From Acaryochloris marina S15 (GTDB taxonomy: Bacteria; Cyanobacteriota; Cyanobacteriia; Thermosynechococcales; Thermosynechococcaceae), in assembly GCF_018336915.1 (NCBI RefSeq), contig NZ_CP064923.1:5400001-5432000 (forward strand): a DNA stretch of 32,000 nt, in the 5' to 3' direction. A program made the translations under genes and the position numbers. Under the pieces are notes generated by a model that saw only the letters and a program-made list of their open reading frames with translations, was not told where the DNA came from and did not search any database. Below, piece after piece: positions 14,727 to 27,201 of this stretch (position 1 is its first letter; each line of letters begins with the position of its first letter).

Positions 14727-15133
14727 GTTGACAGTGCCGTTACCTGCTGACATATCCAAGCACGCATAATTTAGGTCTAAATAGCAGATATCTTCACTGT
14801 TAGAGTTCTTCTCATTCTATCTGGGGGAAGATTCAGTGGGGCCTGTCAGGGATGAAACTTAAACAACAAGCCACAGTAAAGCTTCGGCAGGGTTTGCCTT
14901 TCGGATCGAAGACTTTATTGTCTTGGAATGATCAGCCTTGTCAATAAGATTGAGCAACCTGAAAAGAATTGGCCTATTCTTGGATTCCACTTGTGATAGA
15001 TAAATCATTACCCCCCGATATTTTTGCAACGCTAGAAAGCCCAGTTTATACAACCGCAATTTCTCCTAACGGGCAACAAGTCGTTGCAGGGTTAAAAGAT
15101 GGTTCTCTACATCTTTTCGATCTAGTGGAGGGC

Positions 15134-16746
15134 CAGCCCATCGGCCAACCCTTCGCGGGACATTCTGGCTATGTCTGGTCCGTCGCCTTCTCCCCTGATG
15201 GAAAAACCATCGTCAGTGGCAGTTATGACAACACCCTGCGCTTGTGGAATCTGGACGGACAGACCATCGGCCAACCCTTCTCGGGACATTCTGACACTGT
15301 CAGGTCCGTCGCCTTCTCCCCTGATGGAAAAACCATCGTCAGTGGCAGTGATGACAACACCCTGCGCTTGTGGAATCTGGACGGACAGACCATCGGCCAA
15401 CCCTTCGCGGGACATTCTGGCTCTGTCTGGTCCGTCGCCTTCTCCCCTGATGGAAAAACCATCGTCAGTGGCAGTTATGACAAAACCCTGCGCTTGTGGA
15501 ATCTGGACGGACAGACCATCGGCCAACCCTTCTCGGGACATTCTGACACTGTCAGGTCCGTCGCCTTCTCCCCTGATGGAAAAACCATCGTCAGTGGCAG
15601 TGATGACAACACCCTGCGCTTGTGGAATCTGGACGGACAGACCATCGGCCAACCCTTCGCGGGACATTCTGGCTCTGTCTGGTCCGTCGCCTTCTCCCCT
15701 GATGGAAAAACCATCGTCAGTGGCAGTTATGACAAAACCCTGCGCTTGTGGAATCTGGACGGACAGACCATCGGCCAACCCTTCTCGGGACATTCTGACA
15801 CTGTCAGGTCCGTCGCCTTCTCCCCTGATGGAAAAACCATCGTCAGTGGCAGTGATGACAACACCCTGCGCTTGTGGAATCTGGACGGACAGACCATCGG
15901 CCAACCCTTCGCGGGACATACTGGCTCTGTCAGGTCCGTCGCCTTCTCCCCTGATGGAAAAACCATCGTCAGTGGCAGTGATGACAAAACCCTGCGCTTG
16001 TGGAATCTGGACGGACAGACCATCGGCCAACCCTTCGCGGGACATTCTGGCTCTGTCTGGTCCGTCGCCTTCTCCCCTGATGGAAAAACCATCGTCAGTG
16101 GCAGTTATGACAAAACCCTGCGCTTGTGGAATCTGGACGGACAGACCATCGGCCAACCCTTCTCGGGACATTCTGACACTGTCAGGTCCGTCGCCTTCTC
16201 CCCTGATGGAAAAACCATCGTCAGTGGCAGTGATGACAACACCCTGCGCTTGTGGAATCTGGACGGACAGACCATCGGCCAACCCTTCGCGGGACATTCT
16301 GGCTCTGTCAGGTCCGTCGCCTTCTCCCCTGATGGAAAAACCATCGTCAGTGGCAGTGATGACAACACCCTGCGCTTGTGGAATCTGGACGGACAGACCA
16401 TCGGCCAACCCTTCGCGGGACATACTGGCTCTGTCAGGTCCGTCGCCTTCTCCCCTGATGGAAAAACCATCGTCAGTGGCAGTGATGACAACACCCTGCG
16501 CTTGTGGAATCTGGACGGACAGACCATCGGCCAACCCTTCGCGGGACATTCTGGCTCTGTCTGGTCCGTCGCCTTCTCCCCTGATGGAAAAACCATCGTC
16601 AGTGGCAGTTATGACAAAACCCTGCGCTTGTGGAATCTGGACGGACAGACCATCGGCCAACCCTTCTCGGGACATTCTGACACTGTCAGGTCCGTCGCCT
16701 TCTCCCCTGATGGAAAAACCATCGTCAGTGGCAGTGATGACAAAAC
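15134..16746 (+). repeat. Tandem array of ~12.8 near-identical 126-bp (42-codon) WD40 units with a 252-bp higher-order period
   Basis: Direct reading shows invariant blocks such as tccgtcgccttctcccctgatggaaaaaccatcgtcagtggcagt and accctgcgcttgtggaatctggacggacagaccatcggccaacccttc recurring every 126 nt. Differences are limited to 7 codons per unit. Confidence 0.95.
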
Positions 16747-17231
16747 AGTATGTTTGTGTAAACGCACCATTGAGAAAGACTTCAAACTCCTGTGGATGTG
16801 CCCTCCCATCATTGCCAAACCCATTAAAAATTTATCTGAGCTGATCGGCAATATCCTCATTTCTCAGGGAATCAAAAACGATCGAGCGTTTGGTCATGAT
16901 GCCTTAGATGTCGAGGATGAAATTAATGCTTTAACTGAAGTACTGCTACTCAGGAGTTTGACCCCTCCAGTTGCCGTCGGCCTATTAGGCAATTGGGGCA
17001 GTGGAAAATCGTTTGGCATGCATCTCATTCAATCCCAGATCAAGGCTCGACGACGCCAAGCACTGACATCAGAAGAAGCCTGGGGAAAGTGGAACCCCAG
17101 GCAAGAAGCACAGATTGAACGCATGTCACCATTTGTGGGTCATGTTTACCAGATTCAATTCAACGCCTGGACCTATGCCAAGTCCAATCTTTGGGCAAGT
17201 TTGATGCAGGAAATCTTTTATGAATTGAATC

Positions 17232-17240
17232 GACAAATTA
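17232..17240. repeat. Left copy of 9-bp target-site duplication GACAAATTA
   Basis: Identical 9-mer directly abuts both IS ends (17232-17240 and 18727-18735). Confidence 0.85.
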
Positions 17241-18726
17241 GGGCGTAAGCAAAGGATCGGGGATGCATGGCTCAAAGAAAAACGGGTCAAGGACAATAGA
17301 TCCTGTACCCGAACCAAAAAACTATCATGACCCTACCATCGCAATTGCTAACCGTGCTAGCCCATGACGAATTTCTAGAACAAACTGAAGCACTCAAAGT
17401 ATCAACCAGCCTGAGTCAGATGGTTTATATCGTTCTGCAAATGGGCTTGTTTCTAGCTCGCTGTCTTCTGGAGGATGAACTCTCAAGGCGCGCGAAAGCA
17501 GTATTTGTATGGCCTGTATGTACTACCTGCGGAACCCGCTTACATTCGAAGGGATGGGAATCTCGTCAGATGCAGACACTGGTAGGCACTATCTCTTGAA
17601 AGCGACGGGTGGGCCGTTGTCCCAAAGGATGTCCAGGCAGTCTGTTGACTCCCCTGGATCAAGCCATTGGGATTGCCCCCTATCAGCACAGCAGCGAAGA
17701 ACTGGTGCGTCTGGGCTGCTTGTTGAGTCTGTTCATGCCCTATGAACTGGCCAGTTGGATGCTGGGTCAGTGGAGTGGTCTATCCGTGAGTCCATCCAGT
17801 TTGTGGAACTGGGTGCAATCCGTGGGTAACAAAGCTCAGCAGGAATTAGAAGCTCAACTCAACGCTCAATCATCAGGGACTCAGGCCCCTTGTGAAGCGA
17901 TTTCAGAGATGTTATCTGCTCTACCTTTGGCCATTGCCGCCGATGGTGTGATGGTCCCCTTTCGCCCCACCCCGAACTCACCCAAGGGAAAAATCCAGTG
18001 GCGAGAAGTCAAAGTCGCCATCTTAGCTCGCCTGGGAACACGGGTTACCCGAGCTAAAAAGGAGGTCCCCCAATTACTGCGTCGAAGACTGGTGGCAGTA
18101 TTGGGCGATATCGACCAGTTCATCCCTTTACTTCAACTCGAAGCTCACAAACAAGACTTTGAATCTGCTCCAAAAGTCATCTGGCTCAGTGATGGGGGAC
18201 GAGGCTTCTGGCGAGTCTATCGCACCTTGTTCTCTCATTGTGCTGTGGCAGTCCTCGACTTTTTTCATTCAGCAGGCCATCTGGCACGAGCAACTAAAGC
18301 GATGTTTGGAGATGCCCGCTCTGCTCAAGCCCAAGCCTGGTTCCGGCACTGGCGACACCAATTGCGACACGGGCAACACCTACTTGTATTACGGTCCTTG
18401 ACGATATTGATTCACTCACAACTGTTAACGGGAAAGTCTTTTTCAACGTTGCTCCAGGTGCAGGCTTATTTCCAACGCCATCATAACCACATCCGTTATC
18501 GGCACTTTGAACAGCAACAGATTCCTCTCGGGTCAGGAATGGTTGAAAGTGCATGCAAGTGGTTGATTCAGCAGCGCTTTAAGGGAGTTGGCATGCGCTG
18601 GAGTGAGGATGGTTTCAACCATTTACTGATCTTGAGAATTGCCTGGGTCAATGAACGGTTTGACTCCTTATTCCCAGAGGTGACCATTCCGAAAACTAAG
18701 GCATCCCCGATCCGCTAAATACGCCC
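17241..18726 (+). mobile_element. Insertion sequence, 1486 bp, single DDE-type transposase (ISKra4-like; family assignment tentative)
   Basis: 26-bp imperfect terminal inverted repeats: left gggcgtaagcaaaggatcggggatgc (17241-17266), right gcatccccgatccgctaaatacgccc (18701-18726). 21/26 positions match by my alignment. Flanked by the 9-bp direct repeat GACAAATTA. Interrupts an otherwise continuous reading frame. Confidence 0.9.
17327..18718 (+). pseudogene. IS transposase reading frame interrupted by one in-frame TGA (17597-17599)
   Basis: ORFs 17327..17599 and 17609..18718 are in the same frame, separated only by TGA plus three sense codons (..TLVGTIS*KRRVGRCPKGC..). Cys-rich zinc-finger-like segment CTTCG...CPKGC. 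Candidate DDE residues in IAADGVMVPF, WLSDGGRGFW and GSGMVESACKW. Confidence 0.7.
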
Positions 18727-18735
18727 GACAAATTA
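18727..18735. repeat. Right copy of 9-bp target-site duplication GACAAATTA
   Basis: See left copy. It directly follows the right IR. Confidence 0.85.
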
Positions 18736-21716
18736 CCTTAGAACAAAAATTGGGCCGTTTTTTAAGCAATAAGGATGCCCCACTCACTGAAAACGCATCG
18801 CCAACCAGTCCTGCTCATCGGGGCCAGCATTACACTCCCTATAAATTTCTGAATTATTATATTCTCCGCCACTATCGGCTGATCCAATCCTTCTATCGAC
18901 CGATTAAAAACACAATCTATGCATTTTTTATAGCATTTCTTTCTTTCTTAGATTTAGCGATTGGGCAACTCATTATTCATCTAGGAGTGATATTTCTCAC
19001 TATTCTTTGGATCATCCTTTTTCTAACCACTCCACTCTTGCAGTGGCTCACAGAAAAAATTCGCTTCAAGTCTTCAGATATAGATTGGGTTGATAACCTT
19101 GGTGAGTTTATTGAGGCTTTACTCTTTATTTATATAGATTGGTTAAAAAGACAGCTTATAACATATTATTTTCCCCAGATAAATCACTTACCAAGTGCAA
19201 GCAAGTTAGACTACTTCTTGCAGTTTGTTGAGCGTAGTTTATTTTTCTTTTTGGAAGGTTTTCCAAAAAGAATACGGGATCGAATAACTTATTGGCAACG
19301 CCAGCAAGGGGCATTAGAGTCAACAGAAGCAGAAAGCCATTCCCCGCAAACACCACTTGGTATAGACGAGAACCTCCAATTCGGTGAAATTGCTCGTGTC
19401 AATCAAGCTTTACGTCAAGGCGGGCCATTATGGGAGGTCCTATATGAAATCAACGAGGCAGATGCCGATGTCCTCCTCGAACAACGGCTTAGCAAGGAAG
19501 ACAGAGCAAAGTGGAACAACTTAAAATCCAATCAAGAAATATCCAATGTCCTTTGGTCAACGCTAGATAAAATTCAACGACAGAAAAATCAGAATTTTCA
19601 AGCCTTAGAGCAAAAGCTTAAAGAAGCCGAGAAAACGTTAGAACGAAAGCAAAAAAGCAACAAAATTAGTATCAATCAGAAACTCAATCAACGAAAAATA
19701 AGAGCGCTCTGGACACCGTTTTTTAACGGTATAGCGCGGCTCAAATTTTCTAAGGAGGACATCGAAGCCTATTCTGCCGCTGGCACATCGTTTCAAAAGT
19801 TTCGTGACACCATTAAAAGCTGGCAAGGCTTACTTGCCTTATTTTGTATGGGGTTGTTGATTGCGCTCACCGCTAGTTCTGAAAGTCGAGAAGCAATTAC
19901 CCAACTGTTACAAACCATCCTGAATTCTCAAGCCCTTCGTAACCTCATACCTGAATGGATCAAGAACAGTCTCAATTCACTAGTCTCTTGGCTTCCTAAG
20001 GCAATCCAAGCATTTCCAACCTGGCTTCAGATTGGATCTGCGACGTTGATTAGCTTACTACCCGTCATAAAAGCCCTTACAACTTACATTGGCTCAGTCC
20101 AAAAAGAGCAAGCTCGCATTCAAGGCGAAAAAGAGACCTTAATCCAACAGTCCCAAGACAGAGTCACATCAGAAGCCCAAGAAGTCGCTCAGCTACGTTT
20201 AAGAGTCGAAGAAGAACGCCAACAATTGGGACCAAATGCCCAATATCCTTCTCTACTCGACTTCGTCAACGCTCGAATCTCAGGCGATGACTATGGTAAA
20301 CATCTGGGTCTCATGCAGCAAATCAAACAAGATCTTGCAGCCTTATCCTCACGTCTGACCCTGAATCAAAGCAATGAGCAAGATATTCAACAACTATTTC
20401 CCCGCGGTCCTGCCAGAGTATTTCTCTACATTGATGATCTCGATCGTTGTCCCCCCGACCGCGTCGTTGAAGTGCTCGAAGCAGTCCAGCTTCTCCTTAA
20501 TACCAAACTATTTGTCGTCATTTTAGCCATTGACGATCGCTACATTGCCCGCGCGTTAGAACAAGTTTATGCAGGCGTTCTCAAGCGCCGAGGCAAACCC
20601 TCTGGCATCGACTACTTAGAAAAAATCATCCAAATCCCCTATCGACTGCGTCCTATTTCACCCGATACCGTTGAAAGATACTTTCGTTCACAGCTCACCA
20701 TCAAAAAAGAAGATCAGTCATGTGATAAAGGCACAGCACAACAGACTATCTCACATCTCAGTACTAAGCCTTCAGGTCACTCTCATTCAGAATTAAATCA
20801 ACTTGAGAGTCAGTATGTTCAAGACACAGTCAACTCAGAGTCTGAAAAATTACAGCCCACAACAGATAAAGTAGATAATCCATCAAACCAAAATGGTGAA
20901 TCGATAACTCAGAACCTCACCTCCTCTACTAAATCCTCAGAGGAAAATTTACCCAGTCCTAAACCATCTGAGTCATATGCCAAAGCTGCTGTCAGTCCAA
21001 GCACAGAACAAGCAGAACGTCTAAAAGCTTCCGTGAATGAACCGGAGACCAATACTAGTTCTAACGAGAGCAATGCAGAGCCATTAAACAAACCTCCGAC
21101 TCCAGAAGAAGTCACCTATATCTCAACGATTGCAACCGTCGATGCATTTGATGAAGAGGAACTCAAGCTTTTAGTCGATTGCTGTAAATATGTGGATATA
21201 ACCCCTCGAACAGGCAAAAGGTTAATCAATATCTACAAAATCCTACAAATTATTTGGAAAAAGAGGCATAAGGAAAAAGATCACGATCTTCCCTCTGATC
21301 AAACAAAGCGAATAGTGATGTCATTTCTTGCATTATCAGGCAGATACCCTGACTTTATGCGCAATCTCTTTGACGAAATCGATATGCTACTGGAGAAAGA
21401 AACTTTTGCTTCAACCAATGGAGAGATACTCATAAATCCTTCGATTCATCTATCTCTCTCAGAAACACTTGAGACTCTAGCCCCCACAAGCGATTCAAAA
21501 AACTCCCAAGATTTTCACACCAAGAGAGAATGGGATCGTTTCACCTCAGACATTAAACGCATGGTGGCGGACTCTTACACTACAACCGCAGACCCTGTTC
21601 TCACCTTAGATCGCAGAACCTTTTCTTTAATGCTTTCATTCTGCTTTGTGGGAGATCTTGGCTATGACCCAGATGATCACCCAGTGAACGTTCCAACACT
21701 TCAAAATCCTGAATAA
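18736..21716 (+). pseudogene. 3' part of the IS-disrupted WD40-KAP NTPase gene (TM insert, coiled coils, Walker B, disordered insert, C-terminal helical region)
   Basis: In frame with the 5' part once 17241..18735 is removed. Hydrophobic segments IYAFFIAFLSFLDLAIGQLIIHLGVIFLTILWIILFLTTPLL, LLALFCMGLLIALTA and WLQIGSATLISLLPVIKAL. Walker B VFLYIDDLDRC (20418-20450). KAP-like C-terminal ITPRTGKRLINIYKIL. No ATG start of its own (the track uses TTG 18750). Confidence 0.85.
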
Positions 21717-21989: not shown

Positions 21990-22394
21990 ATGCCCCATAT
22001 CCCCTCCTTAACCCAGGTGCAATTAGAAATTCTTCGCCTCGCGAAAGAGAATGATGGTGAAACGCTGCAACTATCCTTTGAATCCCCCGTCATGGGTCAG
22101 GGTGAACCCCCCAGCGATCATCCTCCTTTAATGCAAGAGATGATTGACCTAGGCTTACTCGAAGTACAATCCAGTCGGGTCTATTGCGATACTTCTCGAT
22201 TTCAGAGAGATTGCTGGTTTGAATACTGCGCCAATTTAGAACTGCCCTCCATCTACGCCTGGGAATTATGGCGCCAAGAATTTATTGAGAAGCAGGAAGG
22301 ATCAACCACACTCATCTCGCCTGGAGAAGAATTTGAAGATTTCAGCTATGTGTGGGTACAAGAAATGATATTTCGGGCTGTTCAACCCAGCTAA
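21990..22394 (+). CDS. Hypothetical protein (orphan)
   Basis: 134-aa ORF with ATG start, acidic. No recognisable domain. The N-terminal LTQVQLEILRLAKENDG is only vaguely HTH-like. Confidence 0.45.
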   Translation: MPHIPSLTQVQLEILRLAKENDGETLQLSFESPVMGQGEPPSDHPPLMQEMIDLGLLEVQSSRVYCDTSRFQRDCWFEYCANLELPSIYAWELWRQEFIEKQEGSTTLISPGEEFEDFSYVWVQEMIFRAVQPS

Positions 22395-22564
22395 CGCTGG
22401 GATTATGGCTTTTACTCGAAAAAGTGAACATTCCCGAAGAGTCCGTCGTATTTTTGGGTAAATCTTTGAGCGAGTGAACCTTTGCCACTACTATTTGCAG
22501 CTCAGATTAGAAGCTTTCACTCACACTTAGCTATTCTAGAATTACCCTTAGTGAGATTAATGTG

Positions 22565-23077
22565 ATGGGCCAAAAAATCTTTAGTCCTGGTGAACTTGTT
22601 GAAGAAAGTGGCTTGTATCCCGTTGTTGGCCCTAGAGGTGGAGACAAAGGATACGAAGTGACTGCCGTAAAAGGAGAACCTTTTCCACCACTCCCTGAAA
22701 AAGGATGGGGATTTGGCAAACCTCAGTTAGCCAAAACAAGTGCAAGCCACTCAAGTGCAGCCCTAGTTGAGTATTCGCCACCCGAACTACCGAATCATCG
22801 TCCTATCACTACAGGGAATCTAGCGTTAGTCCCCTCTGAGACATTGCCCGGTGGCCGTCCTATACTGGTCGGAACCCGTCAGGTGAGTAGCTTTGATCAT
22901 TTACCTCAACATCGTCCTGTCTTTGAAAGTGATTTGAACATCGTGGCGATGGTCGGCGATCGTCCTGTGATTAGCTTAGATTCATCCCTCATTCCCTCAG
23001 ACTCTTTACCAGGCAATCGCCCCATTGCCGAGAACAACTCTTCTCCAAGCGGGAATTTGATGGGTTACTTAGATTGA
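22565..23077 (+). CDS. Hypothetical protein: YjzC-like N-terminus plus five degenerate LPxxRP(I/V) repeats
   Basis: ATG at 22565 (GTG at 22562 also possible). N-terminus FSPGELVEESGLYPVVGPRGGDKGYEVTAVKGEPFPP resembles the small YjzC family from memory. C-terminal half carries LPNHRPI, LPGGRPI, LPQHRPV, VGDRPV and LPGNRPI at ~17-22 aa spacing. Confidence 0.55.
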   Translation: MGQKIFSPGELVEESGLYPVVGPRGGDKGYEVTAVKGEPFPPLPEKGWGFGKPQLAKTSASHSSAALVEYSPPELPNHRPITTGNLALVPSETLPGGRPILVGTRQVSSFDHLPQHRPVFESDLNIVAMVGDRPVISLDSSLIPSDSLPGNRPIAENNSSPSGNLMGYLD

Positions 23078-23444: not shown

Positions 23445-25229
23445 ATGTTGCTGTCCCTCCGCATCGAAAATTTTGCCCTGATCGACACCTTAGATCTGAC
23501 CTTTACGGATGGATTGAACGTGCTGACGGGAGAAACCGGAGCCGGGAAGTCCATTTTGCTGGATGCCATCGACTTGATCTTAGGGGGCAAAGCCCTCAGC
23601 TCCATGCTCCGTACAGGCGAATCTCGTACCTTGCTAGAAGCCAGCTTTAGTCTCACTCCAGCGCTTAATACTTGGCTGACCGCCACCGATATCGATCCCT
23701 TAGATGACTTGCTGGTGTGCAGTCGCGAAATTTCGACCCAAAGCACCTTGCGCAGTCGCTTTCGGGTCAATGGCGTTGTCGTCAACAAACAGCAGATCGC
23801 TCAACTCAGGGAACAATTGATCGAAGTAACTGCCCAAGGCCAAGCCGTGCAGTTAGGCCGAGCCGATCGCCAACGACAATGCCTGGACGGATTTGGTGGG
23901 GGACCACTTCTCAAGCAGCGACAGCAGGTTGCCACTGCCTTCACCCGCTGGCAAAAACTCACCACAGAACTCAATACCTTTCGCCAAAACGAACAGCAGC
24001 GCCTCCAAAATATCGATTTGCTCCGGTATCAGCTGCAGGAACTCGATACCGCAAATCTCGCCGACCCCAACGAGCAAACGGATTTAGAACAGGAACTGCA
24101 GCGCCTCAGCCATAGCGTTGAACTAGAACAGCAAAGTTATCAGGTCTACCAGCTCCTCTACGAAAAGGACCAAGGGGACGCCTGTGGCGATCTGTTGGGT
24201 CAGGCCGAATCCATCTTGGTGGATATGAGCCAGTACGACTCGCAGCTTGAGCCGATGCTGGAGCTGGTGCAGCAGGCCCTGACTCAGGTGCAAGAGGCCG
24301 GATCTTTAATTAATGCCTATGGCAATACTGTGGAAACAGATCCTGAACAACTGCAGTCCGTAGAAGCGCGACTGATGGAGCTGAAGCAGATTTGTCGCAA
24401 GTATGGGCCGAGTTTGGCAGATGCGATCGCACATCACCATACCATCCAATCCCAATATGCCGACCTCACGGGCGAAGGCCAATCCCTAGACGAGCTAGAG
24501 CAAGCCGCCGCCGACTGTGAAGCCAAGCTGCAGAAAGCCTGTGACAAGCTAACGGCCCTGCGCCAGAAAGCTGCCCAGCAGCTAGAAGCTCGTATCTTAC
24601 AAGAGCTAAAACCCCTCGCCTTAGACAAGGTGCAGTTTCAGGTCGGATTACAGCCTCTCTCGCCCACCCAGAATGGCGCGGATCAAATTCAGTTTCTCTT
24701 TAGTGCCAACCCTGGTGAAGCCTTACAGCCCCTCTCTGAATCCGCCTCAGGGGGTGAAATGAGTCGATTCTTGCTGGCTCTCAAAGCCTGCTTTTCCCAA
24801 GGGGAAGGCGTGGGCACCCTGATCTTTGATGAAATTGACGCAGGAGTCTCGGGTCATGTCGCCCAGGCAATTGCCACCAAGCTATACCACCTCAGTCAAA
24901 ACCATCAGGTTCTCTGCGTCACCCATCAACCCATGATTGCCGCCATGGCCGATGCCCATTTCCAGGTGCAAAAACAGGTTGTGATTCAGAGGGCAAACTC
25001 AGCCAGCACCCAAGCCGCCGAGCGGACAGTAGTGCAAGTCACGTCCTTGAATGACCAACAGCGACGGCAGGAATTGGCAGAAATTGCCGGGGGCCAGACC
25101 ACTCAGCAGGCTCTCACTTTTGTGGATTCCCTCTTGCAACAGGCCGGGCAAGTGCGACAAAGCTATGCCAACGGCAAAACCGCAACAAAGACCAAAAAAG
25201 CCAAAAAGCGAGCCGTTAACTCTGCTTAG
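23445..25229 (+). CDS. recN: DNA repair protein RecN (SMC-like ATPase)
   Basis: 594 aa. N-terminal LRIENFALIDTLDLTFTDGLNVLTGETGAGKSILLDAI (Walker A). Long coiled-coil middle. C-terminal signature/Walker B SGGEMSRFLLALK ... LIFDEIDAGVSG. Confidence 0.95.
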   Translation: MLLSLRIENFALIDTLDLTFTDGLNVLTGETGAGKSILLDAIDLILGGKALSSMLRTGESRTLLEASFSLTPALNTWLTATDIDPLDDLLVCSREISTQSTLRSRFRVNGVVVNKQQIAQLREQLIEVTAQGQAVQLGRADRQRQCLDGFGGGPLLKQRQQVATAFTRWQKLTTELNTFRQNEQQRLQNIDLLRYQLQELDTANLADPNEQTDLEQELQRLSHSVELEQQSYQVYQLLYEKDQGDACGDLLGQAESILVDMSQYDSQLEPMLELVQQALTQVQEAGSLINAYGNTVETDPEQLQSVEARLMELKQICRKYGPSLADAIAHHHTIQSQYADLTGEGQSLDELEQAAADCEAKLQKACDKLTALRQKAAQQLEARILQELKPLALDKVQFQVGLQPLSPTQNGADQIQFLFSANPGEALQPLSESASGGEMSRFLLALKACFSQGEGVGTLIFDEIDAGVSGHVAQAIATKLYHLSQNHQVLCVTHQPMIAAMADAHFQVQKQVVIQRANSASTQAAERTVVQVTSLNDQQRRQELAEIAGGQTTQQALTFVDSLLQQAGQVRQSYANGKTATKTKKAKKRAVNSA

Positions 25230-25435: not shown

Positions 25436-26203
25436 ATGGTCTCTGAACGATTGTCACAAGCCCTACAGGCTTTGGAGCATCATCCTCAACACCTTCGCAT
25501 CCGAAAATTAATTTACTTTGTCAGTCATCAGCATTGGCCGAGCGATCGCATTCCACAAGACCTTATGCAGCTCGATGTCTTGGTTCCGATCTTGCTCGCC
25601 CAGGTGACCACCGCTCAAGACTTAGGCCATCTGTTATCCAAGCGAGCTGCCAAGCTCAATAAATCCAAAACCTATCTGCCCATTGCCGACGCCATTAGTC
25701 AAACGTTGGCTCCCCTCTGTCAGTCCACGCCTACCATGCCAGACTATGGAGTGCCAGAAGCACTCAGTCCATCTCCCATTGGGGCAGGGGCAATCTACAG
25801 TCTGTTTGACCTAAAAGCAGCCCTAATGCAGTCCACCAACCCGCTGAAAGCAAAAATCTTGATCTTTTCAGCTCTCTATCATCCCTTTAGTTTCAGACGT
25901 CAAAATTGGTTGAACCTAAAGCAACGCTCCTTAGATAAATTACTGCAAACCCTATTCACCACCTATCCCAGCTTTGCGGCCCTAGAACAGAAGTTGATGC
26001 AAACGGCCGATCAGCTAGACACCCTCGATCAGAGTCAACAAGTGGTTCATGCCCTATTACGGGCCGTCCTTCCCCAATACCGAGGTCAATCCCTCGCCAC
26101 GCTAGAGAAACCAGGGCCAGAACCGTTAATCCAGACTGCAATCGACGACTTAGGAATTGAAGATGATATGCTCACTTGCCAATTAGTGACCCAGGCTTCC
26201 TGA
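25436..26203 (+). CDS. Hypothetical protein
   Basis: 255-aa ORF with ATG start and ordinary composition. It ends 5 nt before the pentapeptide-repeat gene start. No domain recognised. Confidence 0.6.
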   Translation: MVSERLSQALQALEHHPQHLRIRKLIYFVSHQHWPSDRIPQDLMQLDVLVPILLAQVTTAQDLGHLLSKRAAKLNKSKTYLPIADAISQTLAPLCQSTPTMPDYGVPEALSPSPIGAGAIYSLFDLKAALMQSTNPLKAKILIFSALYHPFSFRRQNWLNLKQRSLDKLLQTLFTTYPSFAALEQKLMQTADQLDTLDQSQQVVHALLRAVLPQYRGQSLATLEKPGPEPLIQTAIDDLGIEDDMLTCQLVTQAS

Positions 26204-26208
26204 AGGAT

Positions 26209-27201
26209 ATGAAAGCTAAAGCACTACTTAAACAATATGCTGACAATGTCTTTGACTTCAGTGGTCAAACTCTAGCAGGCGTAGATCTAGCAGGGGCTGA
26301 CTTGATTGGCATCAATCTATCAGCAGCGGACCTACGCAATACAAATTTGAGTTTGGCCTACTTGAATCGAGTGGATCTGCAAACTAGCAACCTGACCCAA
26401 AGCAACTTGAGCGGGGCTACCTTGGCTCAGGCCAACTTAAGCCAAGCAAACCTCACGGATGCAGCCCTGCATGGGGCGAATCTACAACGCGCCGTCCTAT
26501 TCAAAGCCGATCTGACCTTGGCAGATCTAACAGATGCCAATCTGATGGAAGCCGATCTGCGGGAAGTCACACTCCGCAGTACCAACCTCACAGGAGCTTG
26601 TCTACGCAGTGCCAACCTGCGGGAAGAAAATCGCAACTGTGCAGATCTTAGAGGAGCTGTCCTCGATGGGGTCGATCTTCAAGGGGCCAATTTACATGGA
26701 GCCGATCTGAGCAAAGTTAGCTTACAAGGAGCAAATCTCCGCAATGCCAATTTGCGAGCAGCCAATTTGGCCGGGGCCGATCTACAGGGCGCTAATCTTG
26801 AGCAAGCCTTGCTGATTGAGGCCAATCTCCAGCAAGCGAATCTGAGTCACGCCACCTTAGCCGATGCAAAGCTAGAGCGAGTGAATCTCCAGATGGCTCA
26901 GCTTGTCAACAGTGATTTAAGCGACTGCACCTTGGTGGAGAGTGACCTCAGTCAAGCCAATTTGCAAGGCGCAATGCTATATCGCAGTCGGCTGAATCGG
27001 GCCAATCTCAGTCGGGCAAACCTAACAGCAGCTAACCTGCAAGAAGCATTTCTGATTCAAGCATTTTTAGCCAGAACCGATCTCACGGATGCGAATCTCC
27101 AAGGTGCCAATCTAACCCGTTCAGATTGGAGTAGTGCAATTCTAACCAGAACCGTCTTAACGGGAGCGACACTACCCGACGGTACAGCCTGTGAAACTTG
27201 A
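26209..27201 (+). CDS. Pentapeptide-repeat protein
   Basis: Nearly the whole protein is A(D/N)LxG/A(N/D)Lxx pentads (ADLAGADLIGINLSAADLRNTNLSLAYLNRVDL...). The ORF is open from 26176, but the ATG at 26209 follows the upstream stop and is the likely start. Confidence 0.9.
   Translation: MKAKALLKQYADNVFDFSGQTLAGVDLAGADLIGINLSAADLRNTNLSLAYLNRVDLQTSNLTQSNLSGATLAQANLSQANLTDAALHGANLQRAVLFKADLTLADLTDANLMEADLREVTLRSTNLTGACLRSANLREENRNCADLRGAVLDGVDLQGANLHGADLSKVSLQGANLRNANLRAANLAGADLQGANLEQALLIEANLQQANLSHATLADAKLERVNLQMAQLVNSDLSDCTLVESDLSQANLQGAMLYRSRLNRANLSRANLTAANLQEAFLIQAFLARTDLTDANLQGANLTRSDWSSAILTRTVLTGATLPDGTACET

What the first reader, a model, noticed from the sequence alone, without database searches (positions are those of the whole stretch)
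16988..21716. KAP module: ~645 codons between Walker A and B holding four predicted TM helices and coiled coils, plus a ~135-aa disordered insert
After removing the IS, Walker A (16988) and Walker B (20418) are ~645 codons apart. The intervening sequence has two adjacent hydrophobic helices (IYAFFIAFLSFLDLAIGQLIIHLGVIFLTILWIILFLTTPLL, ~18915-19050) and two more (LLALFCMGLLIALTA ~19830-19880; WLQIGSATLISLLPVIKAL ~20010-20090). These are separated by charged, heptad-like segments (QNFQALEQKLKEAEKTLERKQK; EQARIQGEKETLIQQSQDRVTSEAQEVAQLRLRVEEERQQL). TM helices inserted inside the P-loop domain are the defining oddity of the KAP family (Kidins220/ARMS, PifA; Aravind et al. 2004). In addition, a Ser/Thr/Asn/Glu/Pro-rich low-complexity stretch (~20704-21110: KKEDQSCDKGTAQQ...NKPPTPEE) splits the NTPase core from the C-terminal helical region (ITPRTGKRLINIYKIL). 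A cytoplasmic WD40 sensor wired to a membrane-embedded NTPase suggests nucleotide-dependent membrane remodelling or permeabilisation as the output. This is hypothesis only.
Basis: partly seen in the sequence, partly recalled or inferred. Interest (0 to 1): 0.65.

Follow-up and report, generated by a model that had tools for sequence, protein, structure and literature searches.

The report
IS-broken WD40–KAP membrane NTPase gene
This is an ordinary, though unusually long, member of the known KAP family of membrane-anchored P-loop NTPases, fused to a WD40 repeat sensor as in many cyanobacteria and knocked out in this genome by an insertion sequence.

Summary
Removing a 1,486-bp ISKra4-family insertion sequence and one copy of its target duplication restores a single 1,750-codon ORF. 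The repaired junction is identical to an intact 82%-identical Acaryochloris ortholog. Walker A (aa 674) and Walker B (aa 1319) lie 645 residues apart. Pfam KAP_NTPase (E 1e-35) covers both motifs, so they belong to one domain.

The stretch between them holds a strongly hydrophobic 48-residue hairpin (TM1/2), a good TM3 and a weak TM4. All four are conserved as hydrophobic segments in about 30 cyanobacterial WD40-KAP homologs. TM3/4 match the single hairpin found across the wider family. TM1/2 sit in a clade-specific, fast-evolving insertion of about 200 aa. AlphaFold2 gives long helices on either side of TM3/4 and a 116-aa disordered linker (aa 1424-1539). A polar linker of 79-237 aa occurs at this site across the family.

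TM helices inside the P-loop domain are the published hallmark of KAP NTPases, and WD40-KAP fusions are already annotated. Related KAP modules carry TIR, caspase, nSTAND1 or EAD7 domains, which points to a conflict or immunity role. Membrane permeabilisation as the output remains untested. The gene is dead here. Verdict: new member of a known kind, low to moderate interest.

The parts
14969..17240 (+). 5' part of the interrupted gene: N-terminal WD40 region plus the first part of the KAP NTPase (through codon 757)
   Evidence: ORF list and translation; repaired ORF; WD40 Pfam hits
15126..16743 (+). WD40 tandem array: 12.8 copies of a 126-bp unit at 95% identity. The 13 42-aa units differ at only 7 positions.
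   Evidence: TRF; repeat comparison
16988..17011 (+). Walker A / P-loop GNWGSGKS (aa 674-681)
   Evidence: invariant G, G, K columns in the 85-sequence alignment
17231..17240 (.). left copy of the target-site duplication (C)GACAAATTA
   Evidence: the repeat finder D12
17241..18726 (+). ISKra4-family insertion sequence. Inverted repeats at 17241-17266 and 18701-18726. The transposase reading frame runs 17327-18718 and is split by an in-frame TGA at 17597-17599.
   Evidence: a 99.7% identical copy lies on Acaryochloris sp. 'Moss Beach' plasmid pMB01
18726..18735 (.). right copy of the target-site duplication
18736..21716 (+). 3' part of the interrupted gene (codons 758-1750 plus stop)
18786..19379 (+). 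clade-specific, fast-evolving insertion (aa 775-972) that contains TM1/TM2; absent from the 2-TM relatives
   Evidence: alignment mapping; low identity; only 3 phmmer hits among 1.8 billion representatives
18909..19052 (+). hydrophobic hairpin TM1/TM2 (aa 816-863)
   Evidence: KD peak 2.86; Hessa-type sum -4.2 for TM2 and +3.9 for TM1; present in all close homologs
19380..19745 (+). conserved cytoplasmic helical region (aa 973-1094) ending in a 66-residue helix that holds the QNFQALEQKLKEAEK segment
   Evidence: AF2 pLDDT about 87-95 over aa 974-1073, falling towards the membrane end; helix 1029-1094; motifs conserved in both subfamilies
19818..19886 (+). TM3 (aa 1119-1141)
   Evidence: KD 1.75; 61% identity across the clade; aligns with the first half of the family-wide hairpin
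19887..20009 (+). TM3-TM4 loop (aa 1142-1182) with amphipathic helices, predicted extracytoplasmic; very short in the 2-TM relatives
20010..20102 (+). TM4 (aa 1183-1213); weak here, clearer in homologs
   Evidence: KD 1.47 here against 1.6-2.3 in about 21 of 32 close homologs
   Evidence: AF2 helix 1195-1255, pLDDT 79-94; 3.5-3.6 periodicity
20418..20447 (+). Walker B VFLYIDDLDR (aa 1319-1328)
   Evidence: D, D, L, D, R, C are invariant columns; AF2 strand 1317-1324
20733..21080 (+). disordered polar linker (aa 1424-1539)
   Evidence: AF2 pLDDT below 50; about 10% identity; the linker between KIIQIPY and TPRxxKR is 79-237 aa family-wide and 186 aa here
21102..21716 (+). conserved C-terminal helical region (aa 1547-1750) with the TPRTGKRLINIYK and SFCFVGDLGYDPDD motifs. 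Its first ~50 residues fall inside the Pfam KAP profile.
   Evidence: AF2 pLDDT mostly above 90; invariant P, R, R, N, F columns; Pfam match reaches profile position 290 of 293

Best explanation
A chromosomal gene, almost certainly from Acaryochloris, encodes one 1,750-aa protein of the KAP P-loop NTPase family and was recently knocked out by an ISKra4-family insertion sequence.

Shown:
- The N-terminal ~620 aa are 13-14 nearly identical WD40 blades.
- The rest is one KAP NTPase domain. Its Walker A and Walker B halves are separated by a 645-aa insertion, and its helical C-terminal region is set off by a ~116-aa disordered linker.
- The insertion carries two hydrophobic hairpin regions. TM3/TM4 correspond to the single hairpin present throughout this KAP family. 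TM1/TM2 lie in an extra ~200-aa segment specific to the cyanobacterial WD40-KAP clade.

Inferred:
- All four segments span the membrane with both NTPase halves, the WD40 propellers and the C-terminal region in the cytoplasm. An even number of spans is required for this. K/R-rich flanks lie on the proposed inner side, though K+R density in the proposed outer loop is not much lower.
- The long helices 1029-1094 and 1195-1255 connect the nucleotide-binding head to the TM3/TM4 hairpin.
- The intact protein probably acts as a one-gene, NLR-like conflict or immunity sensor-switch. The variable WD40 top face binds a trigger. The KAP head then binds or hydrolyses NTP and changes its oligomeric or conformational state at the membrane. 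The output is either a disturbance of the membrane or recruitment of partners there.
- In this genome the gene is split at codon 757/758, so the full protein cannot be made.
For: Gene structure and repair:
-. The junction is identical to the intact ortholog, with shared upstream synteny.

KAP membership:
- Pfam PF07693 E 1e-35, 123.9 bits against a cut-off of 20, spanning both motifs.
- The same profile aligns as a single stretch in relatives.
- The DDLDRC and GxxGxGKS columns are invariant.

One folded domain:
- AF2 pLDDT is above 90 on both halves of the core; pTM 0.64.

TM segments:
- Hydropathy and positional conservation in 85 homologs.

Topology:
- K+R counts in the flanks.
- The region aa 973-1090 precedes the hairpin, on the Walker A side, in the 2-TM relatives.

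Linker:
-.

Conflict or immunity role:
- Related KAP modules are fused to EAD7, TIR-nSTAND1, caspase-nSTAND1, a kinase and Kelch.
- Kaur et al. 2021 describe KAP ATPases displacing STAND NTPases in counter-invader systems (PMC8195603).
- KAP proteins have been shown experimentally to protect against phage, dependent on Walker B (PMC13552941).
- PADLOC hits are domain-level only, to PDC-S20, QatA and PifA.
- WD40 variation is confined to 7 positions per blade.

Stand-alone gene:
- No conserved neighbour in 31 loci; the flanks are housekeeping genes.

Recent IS insertion:
- Perfect target duplication, a 99.7% identical IS copy elsewhere, and both gene halves free of other lesions.
Against: - No dedicated topology predictor could be run. 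TM1 and TM4 are marginal in this protein on a free-energy-type scale.
- AF2 draws aa 794-865 as one continuous helix rather than a hairpin.
- The stalk fragment modelled alone was of low confidence (pTM 0.34), so the head-stalk-hairpin picture is not established.
- Foldseek found no significant structural relative (best E 0.17), and there is no PDB sequence relative.
- The genomic context is housekeeping, not a defence island.
- No WD40-KAP protein has been studied experimentally as far as the searched literature shows.
- Acaryochloris is unicellular, whereas such systems are described as enriched in multicellular bacteria.
Confidence: 0.6

Rival explanations
1. The TM insert is itself the effector. 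Trigger binding to the WD40 domain and NTP turnover would drive oligomerisation, so that the TM hairpins form a pore or ion-export path, causing membrane leakage, depolarisation or plasmolysis.
For: - The WD40-KAP proteins carry no recognisable enzymatic effector domain and have no conserved partner gene. An output must therefore reside in the chain.
- The clade gained an extra TM hairpin.
- There are precedents. PifA causes depolarisation and nucleotide leakage. Tmn, another P-loop NTPase with inserted TMs, forms a decamer with a central pore of about 25 Å and exports Mg2+ (PMC13001434).
Against: - PifA itself is reported to lack TM helices, and Tmn belongs to a different family (YobI), so both are analogies.
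- The E. faecalis KAP defence was reported not to act by abortive infection and to need its C-terminal region (PMC13552941).
- The conserved C-terminal region (aa 1547-1750) could equally be the output module.
- No computation here addresses pore formation.
Confidence: 0.25
2. The TM helices are only a membrane anchor. The protein would be a nucleotide-regulated scaffold that assembles or disassembles membrane-associated complexes, possibly unrelated to immunity. This is the role proposed for Kidins220/ARMS, with the WD40 propellers acting as a protein-docking platform.
For: - This was the original general prediction for KAP NTPases. It comes from Aravind et al. 2004, which I recall from memory because the paper is not in the library. 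[quoted passage not shown]
- WD40 propellers are classic scaffolds.
- The genomic context is housekeeping.
- EAD7-KAP relatives are expected to recruit effectors in trans (PMC7159879).
Against: - The near-identical WD40 units vary only at a few positions. That pattern is typical of diversifying recognition modules rather than fixed scaffolds.
- Sister architectures carry death or immunity domains such as TIR and caspase.
- Loss to an IS fits a dispensable accessory gene.
Confidence: 0.2
3. Only some of the hydrophobic segments truly cross the membrane. Either TM2 and TM3 alone span, or the hairpins dip in from one side without crossing. The topology would then differ from the 4-span model.
For: - TM1 (+3.9) and TM4 (+5.1) score no better than a buried core segment of the P-loop fold (aa 1338-1356, +4.8) on the simple insertion scale.
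- KD for TM4 is 1.47, below the usual 1.6 threshold.
- AF2 shows aa 794-865 as one helix.
Against: - If only TM2 and TM3 spanned, the conserved region aa 973-1090 would lie outside the cell. That region sits on the Walker A side in the 2-TM relatives and is modelled with pLDDT above 90.
- TM4 is clearly hydrophobic in most homologs.
- The 48-residue uninterrupted hydrophobic stretch fits two spans.
- Marginal helices commonly insert as hairpins with a strong partner (general knowledge).
Confidence: 0.2

Closest known systems
KAP family P-loop NTPases (Pfam PF07693; Aravind, Iyer, Leipe & Koonin 2004), in particular the cyanobacterial WD40-KAP proteins annotated 'P-loop NTPase fold protein' or 'KAP P-loop domain protein' (Pseudanabaena, Phormidium, Leptolyngbya PCC 7376, Nostoc, Anabaena)
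   Same: - Walker A GxxGxGKS and Walker B hhhhDDLDRC.
- TM helices inserted between the two motifs.
- C-terminal helical region with TPRxxKR.
- N-terminal WD40 array.
- 38-82% identity over the whole KAP module.
- From memory of the 2004 abstract: two or four TM helices inserted in the domain, and a tendency of prokaryotic members to be disrupted into pseudogenes. Both apply here.
   Different: - Nothing essential differs.
- This copy belongs to the long-insert, 4-TM subgroup, with Walker A to B spacing of 600-700 aa against 375-530 aa in the 2-TM relatives.
- It has one of the longer polar linkers: 186 aa against a family median of 122.
- It is interrupted by an IS.
Kidins220/ARMS (animal KAP NTPase)
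   Same: From memory: repeat domain at the N-terminus (ankyrin there, WD40 here), then a KAP NTPase with four TM helices arranged as two pairs between Walker A and Walker B, with the NTPase on the cytoplasmic face.
   Different: - The repeat type differs.
- From memory, the TM pairs are much closer to Walker A and to each other in Kidins220.
- Whether the extra hairpin is homologous or gained independently was not tested. Kidins220 did not appear among the hits.
- Kidins220 is a signalling scaffold in neurons.
PifA (F plasmid), QatA (Qat system) and PDC-S20: KAP NTPases in phage defence
   Same: They share the KAP core around Walker B. PADLOC E-values are 4e-11 for PifA, 2e-17 for QatA and 1e-18 for PDC-S20, each covering only ~75-190 residues. 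NCBIfam QatA scores 69.4 bits.
   Different: - The scores are far below family cut-offs (QatA 69.4 against 600).
- There are no QatBCD-type partner genes nearby.
- PifA is reported to lack TM helices (PMC13001434).
- None of these carries WD40 repeats.
Tmn (YobI-family P-loop NTPase with two TM helices inserted in the P-loop domain)
   Same: A membrane-integrated P-loop NTPase with TM helices after Walker A, cytosolic repeat 'arms' that sense a phage protein, and sensor, switch and effector in one chain (PMC13001434).
   Different: It belongs to a different family. Neither Pfam nor NCBIfam returned a YobI-type match for this protein. From memory, Aravind et al. 2004 regarded the TM insertions in the two families as independent.
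STAND/NLR-like bacterial immune receptors (Avs, bNACHT, nSTAND1) and fungal NLRs with highly similar WD40 repeats (HET-E/NWD)
   Same: Tripartite logic of repeat sensor plus NTPase switch. The WD40 units are near-identical and vary at a few surface positions. KAP can replace STAND in such systems (PMC8195603).
   Different: - There is no NACHT, NB-ARC or nSTAND domain; only AAA_22 below threshold.
- The repeats are N-terminal rather than C-terminal.
- The NTPase is membrane-embedded.

Membership tests
KAP family P-loop NTPase (PF07693) | Profile match above the curated threshold, covering the N-terminal (Walker A) and C-terminal (Walker B) parts as one domain | tested here: met
   123.9 bits against a cut-off of 20, E 1e-35. 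Two stretches; the larger covers profile positions 72-290 of 293. In relatives a single stretch covers profile positions 5-288.
KAP family P-loop NTPase (PF07693) | Intact Walker A GxxGxGK[ST] and Walker B hhhhDD[LIV]DR motifs | tested here: met
   GNWGSGKS at aa 674 and VFLYIDDLDRC at aa 1319. These columns are invariant in 85 sequences.
KAP family P-loop NTPase (PF07693) | Two or four TM helices inserted within the NTPase domain (a feature of the TM-bearing members) | tested here: met
   Hydropathy shows four segments, two strong and two marginal. They are conserved in position across homologs. No dedicated topology predictor or experiment was available.
KAP family P-loop NTPase (PF07693) | NTP binding and hydrolysis, and cytoplasmic orientation of the P-loop domain | not testable with these tools
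   Inferred only, from intact motifs, the even number of spans and K/R-rich flanks on the proposed inner side.
QatA (Qat anti-phage system ATPase, NF041923) | Score above the equivalog cut-off, with QatB/C/D partner genes nearby | tested here: not met
   69.4 bits against a cut-off of 600. The neighbours are pdxJ, a GNAT acetyltransferase, cytochrome c, recN and similar genes.
PifA | Full-length similarity to F-plasmid PifA | tested here: not met
   The PADLOC PifA model matches only module residues 588-780, against profile positions 107-271 of 720, E 4e-11.
STAND / NLR NTPases (NACHT, NB-ARC, nSTAND1) | A STAND-type NTPase domain | tested here: not met
   No NACHT, NB-ARC or nSTAND hit. AAA_22 scores 19.2 bits, below its cut-off of 27.
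ISKra4-family insertion sequence (the interrupting element) | Transposase matching NF033572, terminal inverted repeats and a target-site duplication | tested here: met
   222.9 bits against a cut-off of 205 for the 369-aa ORF. 26-nt inverted repeats and a 9-10-bp direct repeat. The plasmid copy is annotated as an ISKra4 family transposase.

The most novel reading that the evidence does not exclude
The cyanobacterial WD40-KAP clade could be a membrane-integrated, single-chain analogue of NLR immune receptors. A recombining, hypervariable WD40 sensor would control a KAP head that is joined to a TM hairpin by two ~60-residue helices. The TM insert, enlarged in this clade from two helices to four, would itself be the effector and open an ion or nucleotide leak on activation. 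That would be a new effector principle for KAP NTPases and a first mechanism for the TM-bearing members of the family.
Probability: 0.2. Interest if true: 0.6.

Novelty: new member of a known kind. Interest (0 to 1): 0.3.

Why it matters
TM-bearing KAP NTPases have been known since 2004, but no structure or mechanism is available for them. KAP proteins were shown experimentally to defend against phage only recently (PMC13552941).

The comparison made here gives a usable map of the family:
- a universal TM3/TM4 hairpin flanked by two long helices;
- a clade-specific second hairpin;
- a universal disordered linker in front of a conserved C-terminal region.

It also identifies intact homologs that could be tested, for example those in Pseudanabaena and Phormidium. 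The particular gene in this window adds little. It is a typical clade member and is inactivated by an IS, which fits the known tendency of prokaryotic KAP genes to decay.

Tried and rejected
- The look-up of encoding contigs for P0001 and for the window's own product P0002 found nothing on record. Context came from the search for related loci instead.
- Aravind et al. 2004 is not in the library under its DOI or PMC id. Statements about it rest on my memory of the abstract and on how later papers cite it.
- A PDB sequence search found no hit at E ≤ 1.
- Foldseek of the full AF2 model against the PDB gave only insignificant AAA+/ORC/ClpX/RdrA-type hits. The long alignments to Rad50, MukB and dynein had probability ≤ 0.12 and rmsd above 30 Å, and I reject them as evidence for an SMC-like stalk.
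- AF2 of the isolated helix-TM3-loop-TM4-helix fragment, run to test for a self-contained antiparallel stalk, gave pLDDT 60.7 and pTM 0.34 from only 13 sequences. This is inconclusive.
- An exhaustive phmmer search with the clade-specific insertion (aa 775-972) found 3 hits, all from the same clade or fragments. I found no donor family for the extra hairpin.
- Conserved-neighbour search: the only recurrent neighbours in 31 loci were histidine kinases, in 8 loci at varying positions and strands. I judged this to be chance, given how common they are in cyanobacteria.
- The PADLOC 'mad3' hit of the downstream ATPase is explained by that gene being RecN.
- My crude heptad screen flagged only aa 1221-1255. 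It is not a validated coiled-coil predictor.

Full report
**1. What is in the sequence**

On the + strand an ORF runs from 14969 to 17248. It encodes a WD40 array followed by GNWGSGKS. A second ORF in a different frame runs from 18750 to 21716 and contains VFLYIDDLDR.

Between them lies a 1,486-bp element.
- It has 26-nt imperfect terminal inverted repeats at 17241-17266 and 18701-18726.
- It is flanked by a direct repeat (C)GACAAATTA at 17231-17240 and 18726-18735.
- Its ORFs match the ISKra4-family transposase model: 222.9 bits against a cut-off of 205.

Deleting the element and one repeat copy (1,495 bp) brings the two ORFs into frame. The result is a 1,750-codon ORF with no internal stop. 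The repaired junction ...FYELNRQITLEQKLGRFLS... is identical in the intact 82%-identical homolog P0001 and closely similar in more distant ones. The repair is therefore correct.

A 99.7% identical copy of the IS lies on plasmid pMB01 of Acaryochloris sp. 'Moss Beach'. The closest homolog locus is an Acaryochloris MAG with the same upstream gene order: DUF1232, two unknown ORFs, cytochrome c, GNAT, pdxJ. The window is therefore almost certainly Acaryochloris chromosome.

The target duplication is perfect, the IS is nearly identical to other copies, and neither gene half has any other lesion. The insertion is recent.

**2. Checking the observation**

Walker A starts at 16988 (aa 674) and Walker B at 20418 (aa 1319), 645 codons apart once the IS is removed.

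Pfam KAP_NTPase matches at E 1e-35, 123.9 bits against a cut-off of 20. Its stretches cover both halves. In relatives the same profile aligns as one stretch across the whole region. AlphaFold2 models both halves of the core with pLDDT above 90, and overall pTM is 0.64. The two motifs belong to one domain.

Hydropathy results:

| Segment | Residues | KD peak (19-aa window) | Hessa-type sum, kcal/mol |
|---|---|---|---|
| TM1 | within 816-863 | 2.86 for the 48-residue stretch | +3.9 |
| TM2 | within 816-863 | 2.86 for the 48-residue stretch | -4.2 |
| TM3 | 1119-1141 | 1.75 | +1.4 |
| TM4 | 1183-1213 | 1.47 | +5.1 |

The Hessa scale values were recalled from memory. On that scale TM4 is no better than a buried core segment of the P-loop fold (aa 1338-1356, +4.8). 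In this protein alone, then, two helices are convincing and two are marginal.

The family comparison settles most of the doubt. In an 85-sequence alignment the hydrophobic segments fall in the same columns. TM1/2 and TM3 are present in all 32 close homologs. TM4 reaches KD 1.6-2.3 in about 21 of the 32. Sequence identity in TM1/2 is only 0.26-0.29, so hydrophobicity is what is conserved.

The quoted 'coiled-coil' segments lie inside AF2 helices aa 1029-1094 and aa 1195-1255. Conserved hydrophobic positions there repeat every 3.5-3.7 residues. Actual pairing into a coiled coil was not demonstrated.

The polar insert is disordered in AF2, with pLDDT below 50 for aa 1424-1539, and is essentially unconserved.

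**3. How the features are distributed in the family**

A search of 5.8 billion proteins returned 108 relatives. The close ones are cyanobacterial WD40-KAP proteins from Acaryochloris, Pseudanabaena, Phormidium, Leptolyngbya, Hormoscilla, Xenococcus, Nostoc and Anabaena. They are annotated 'P-loop NTPase fold protein', 'KAP P-loop domain protein' or 'WD40 repeat protein/predicted KAP-like P-loop ATPase'.

Two layouts exist.
- The wider family has a Walker A to B spacing of 375-530 aa and a single hydrophobic hairpin. That hairpin aligns with TM3 and TM4 of this protein.
- The close clade has a spacing of 600-700 aa. It has a ~40-60-aa loop between TM3 and TM4. It also has an extra ~200-aa segment (aa 775-972) carrying TM1/TM2.

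That extra segment evolves fast. An exhaustive phmmer search of 1.8 billion representatives found only three hits, all from the same clade or fragments.

The region aa 973-1094 and the helix after TM4 are conserved in both layouts.

The polar linker between the KIIQIPY and TPRxxKR motifs is 79-237 aa in 75 family members, with a median of 122. It is 186 aa here, and composition is similar everywhere.

**4. Topology and architecture (inference)**

An even number of spans is needed to keep both NTPase halves on one side of the membrane.

In the 2-TM relatives the conserved region aa 973-1094 precedes the hairpin and must be cytoplasmic. If it is cytoplasmic here too, TM1 and TM2 must both cross the membrane, or neither does.

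The flanks of the proposed inner side carry 3-4 K/R in 20 residues. The TM1-TM2 turn has none, and the 47-aa TM3-TM4 loop has 4. The contrast in K/R density is weak.

The picture that results is as follows. The WD40 propellers, NTPase head and C-terminal region are in the cytoplasm. Two long helices lead from the head to the TM3/TM4 hairpin. A second hairpin is added in this clade.

I tried to test the 'stalk' idea by modelling the fragment aa 1025-1260 alone. The result was of low confidence (pLDDT 60.7, pTM 0.34, 13 sequences). AF2 also drew aa 794-865 as one continuous helix. These structural details remain open.

Foldseek found nothing significant in the PDB, and there is no sequence relative with a solved structure.

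**5. Function**

The gene stands alone. No neighbour is conserved across 31 loci. Its flanks here are housekeeping genes: acs, cytochrome c, GNAT, pdxJ, recN, coaE and a P-type ATPase.

The evidence for a conflict or immunity role is comparative.
- Closely related KAP modules carry EAD7, TIR-nSTAND1, caspase-nSTAND1, protein kinase, Kelch or peptidoglycan-binding domains at the N-terminus.
- Kaur et al. 2021 describe KAP ATPases replacing STAND NTPases in counter-invader systems (PMC8195603).
- EADs are proposed to recruit effectors (PMC7159879).
- KAP-domain proteins protect Enterococcus against phages in a Walker-B-dependent way (PMC13552941).
- PifA is reported to cause membrane depolarisation and nucleotide leakage. 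The unrelated TM-inserted NTPase Tmn forms a decameric membrane complex that exports Mg2+ (PMC13001434).
- The 13 WD40 units are 95% identical at the DNA level and differ only at seven positions per 42-aa unit. From memory, these positions correspond to the top-face hotspot positions of WD40 blades and resemble the diversifying WD repeats of fungal NLRs.

My best reading is a one-gene sensor-switch anchored in the membrane.

Two outputs cannot be told apart with the data in hand. The other is that it is only an anchor, and the output comes from the conserved C-terminal region or from partners acting in trans.

**6. Membership and novelty**

The defining KAP features that could be tested are met: the profile match, the Walker motifs, and the inserted TM helices by hydropathy and conservation.

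The protein is not a QatA orthologue (69.4 bits against a cut-off of 600). It is not a PifA orthologue, since only a partial core match was found. It is not a STAND NTPase.

TM helices within the P-loop domain, in twos or fours, are the published hallmark of the family. From memory, the same 2004 paper also noted a tendency of prokaryotic KAP genes to be disrupted. WD40-KAP fusions are already annotated in databases.

This is a new member of a known kind. The only modestly new points are comparative: the 2-TM core plus a clade-specific second hairpin, and the universal disordered linker.

Because the gene is inactivated here and its traits are family-typical, interest is low to moderate.

Noticed in passing
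window 15126-16743: The WD40 array is 12.8 copies of a 126-bp unit at 95% nucleotide identity. The 13 42-aa units differ at only 7 positions (10, 13-15, 17, 33 and 35 of the unit that starts DGQTIGQ). This pattern resembles the highly similar, diversifying WD repeats of fungal NLRs. The long ORFs in other frames and on the opposite strand (15122-16675 on the - strand, 15171-16844 on the + strand) are by-products of the repeat.
   Followed up: partly
window 17597-17599 (inside the IS, 17241-18726): An in-frame TGA splits the ISKra4-family transposase into 90-aa and 369-aa parts. The same TGA is present in the 99.7% identical copy on Acaryochloris sp. 'Moss Beach' plasmid pMB01, where only the downstream part is annotated. 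It could be a shared defect or a recoding signal.
   Followed up: partly
L008 7656-8300 (Acaryochloris MAG, orthologous gene): The ortholog keeps only about 1.5 WD40 units, preceded by repeat sequence read in the wrong frame. This is most likely short-read collapse of the near-identical repeats rather than a real domain loss.
   Followed up: no
window 25436-27201; L027 314-3989: A 255-aa ORF with no family match and the adjacent pentapeptide-repeat gene lie about 4 kb downstream of the KAP gene here. Homologs of both lie upstream of the KAP gene in an Okeania MAG. This is seen in one locus only, so it is probably chance.
   Followed up: no
window 23445-25229: The PADLOC 'mad3' hit (E 5e-27) for this ORF is misleading. 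It is RecN (TIGR00634, 563.8 bits against a cut-off of 407.85).
   Followed up: yes
window 21990-23077: Two ORFs directly downstream of the KAP gene (134 aa and 171 aa) match nothing in Pfam, NCBIfam or PADLOC. They are absent from the syntenic Acaryochloris MAG locus.
   Followed up: partly
proteins P0066 and P0073 (homologs, not in the window): In some relatives the TM-bearing KAP module sits C-terminal to a complete effector-STAND unit (caspase-nSTAND1-KAP, TIR-nSTAND1-KAP). One chain therefore carries two different NTPase switches, with KAP in the position where STAND proteins usually carry their sensor repeats.
   Followed up: no
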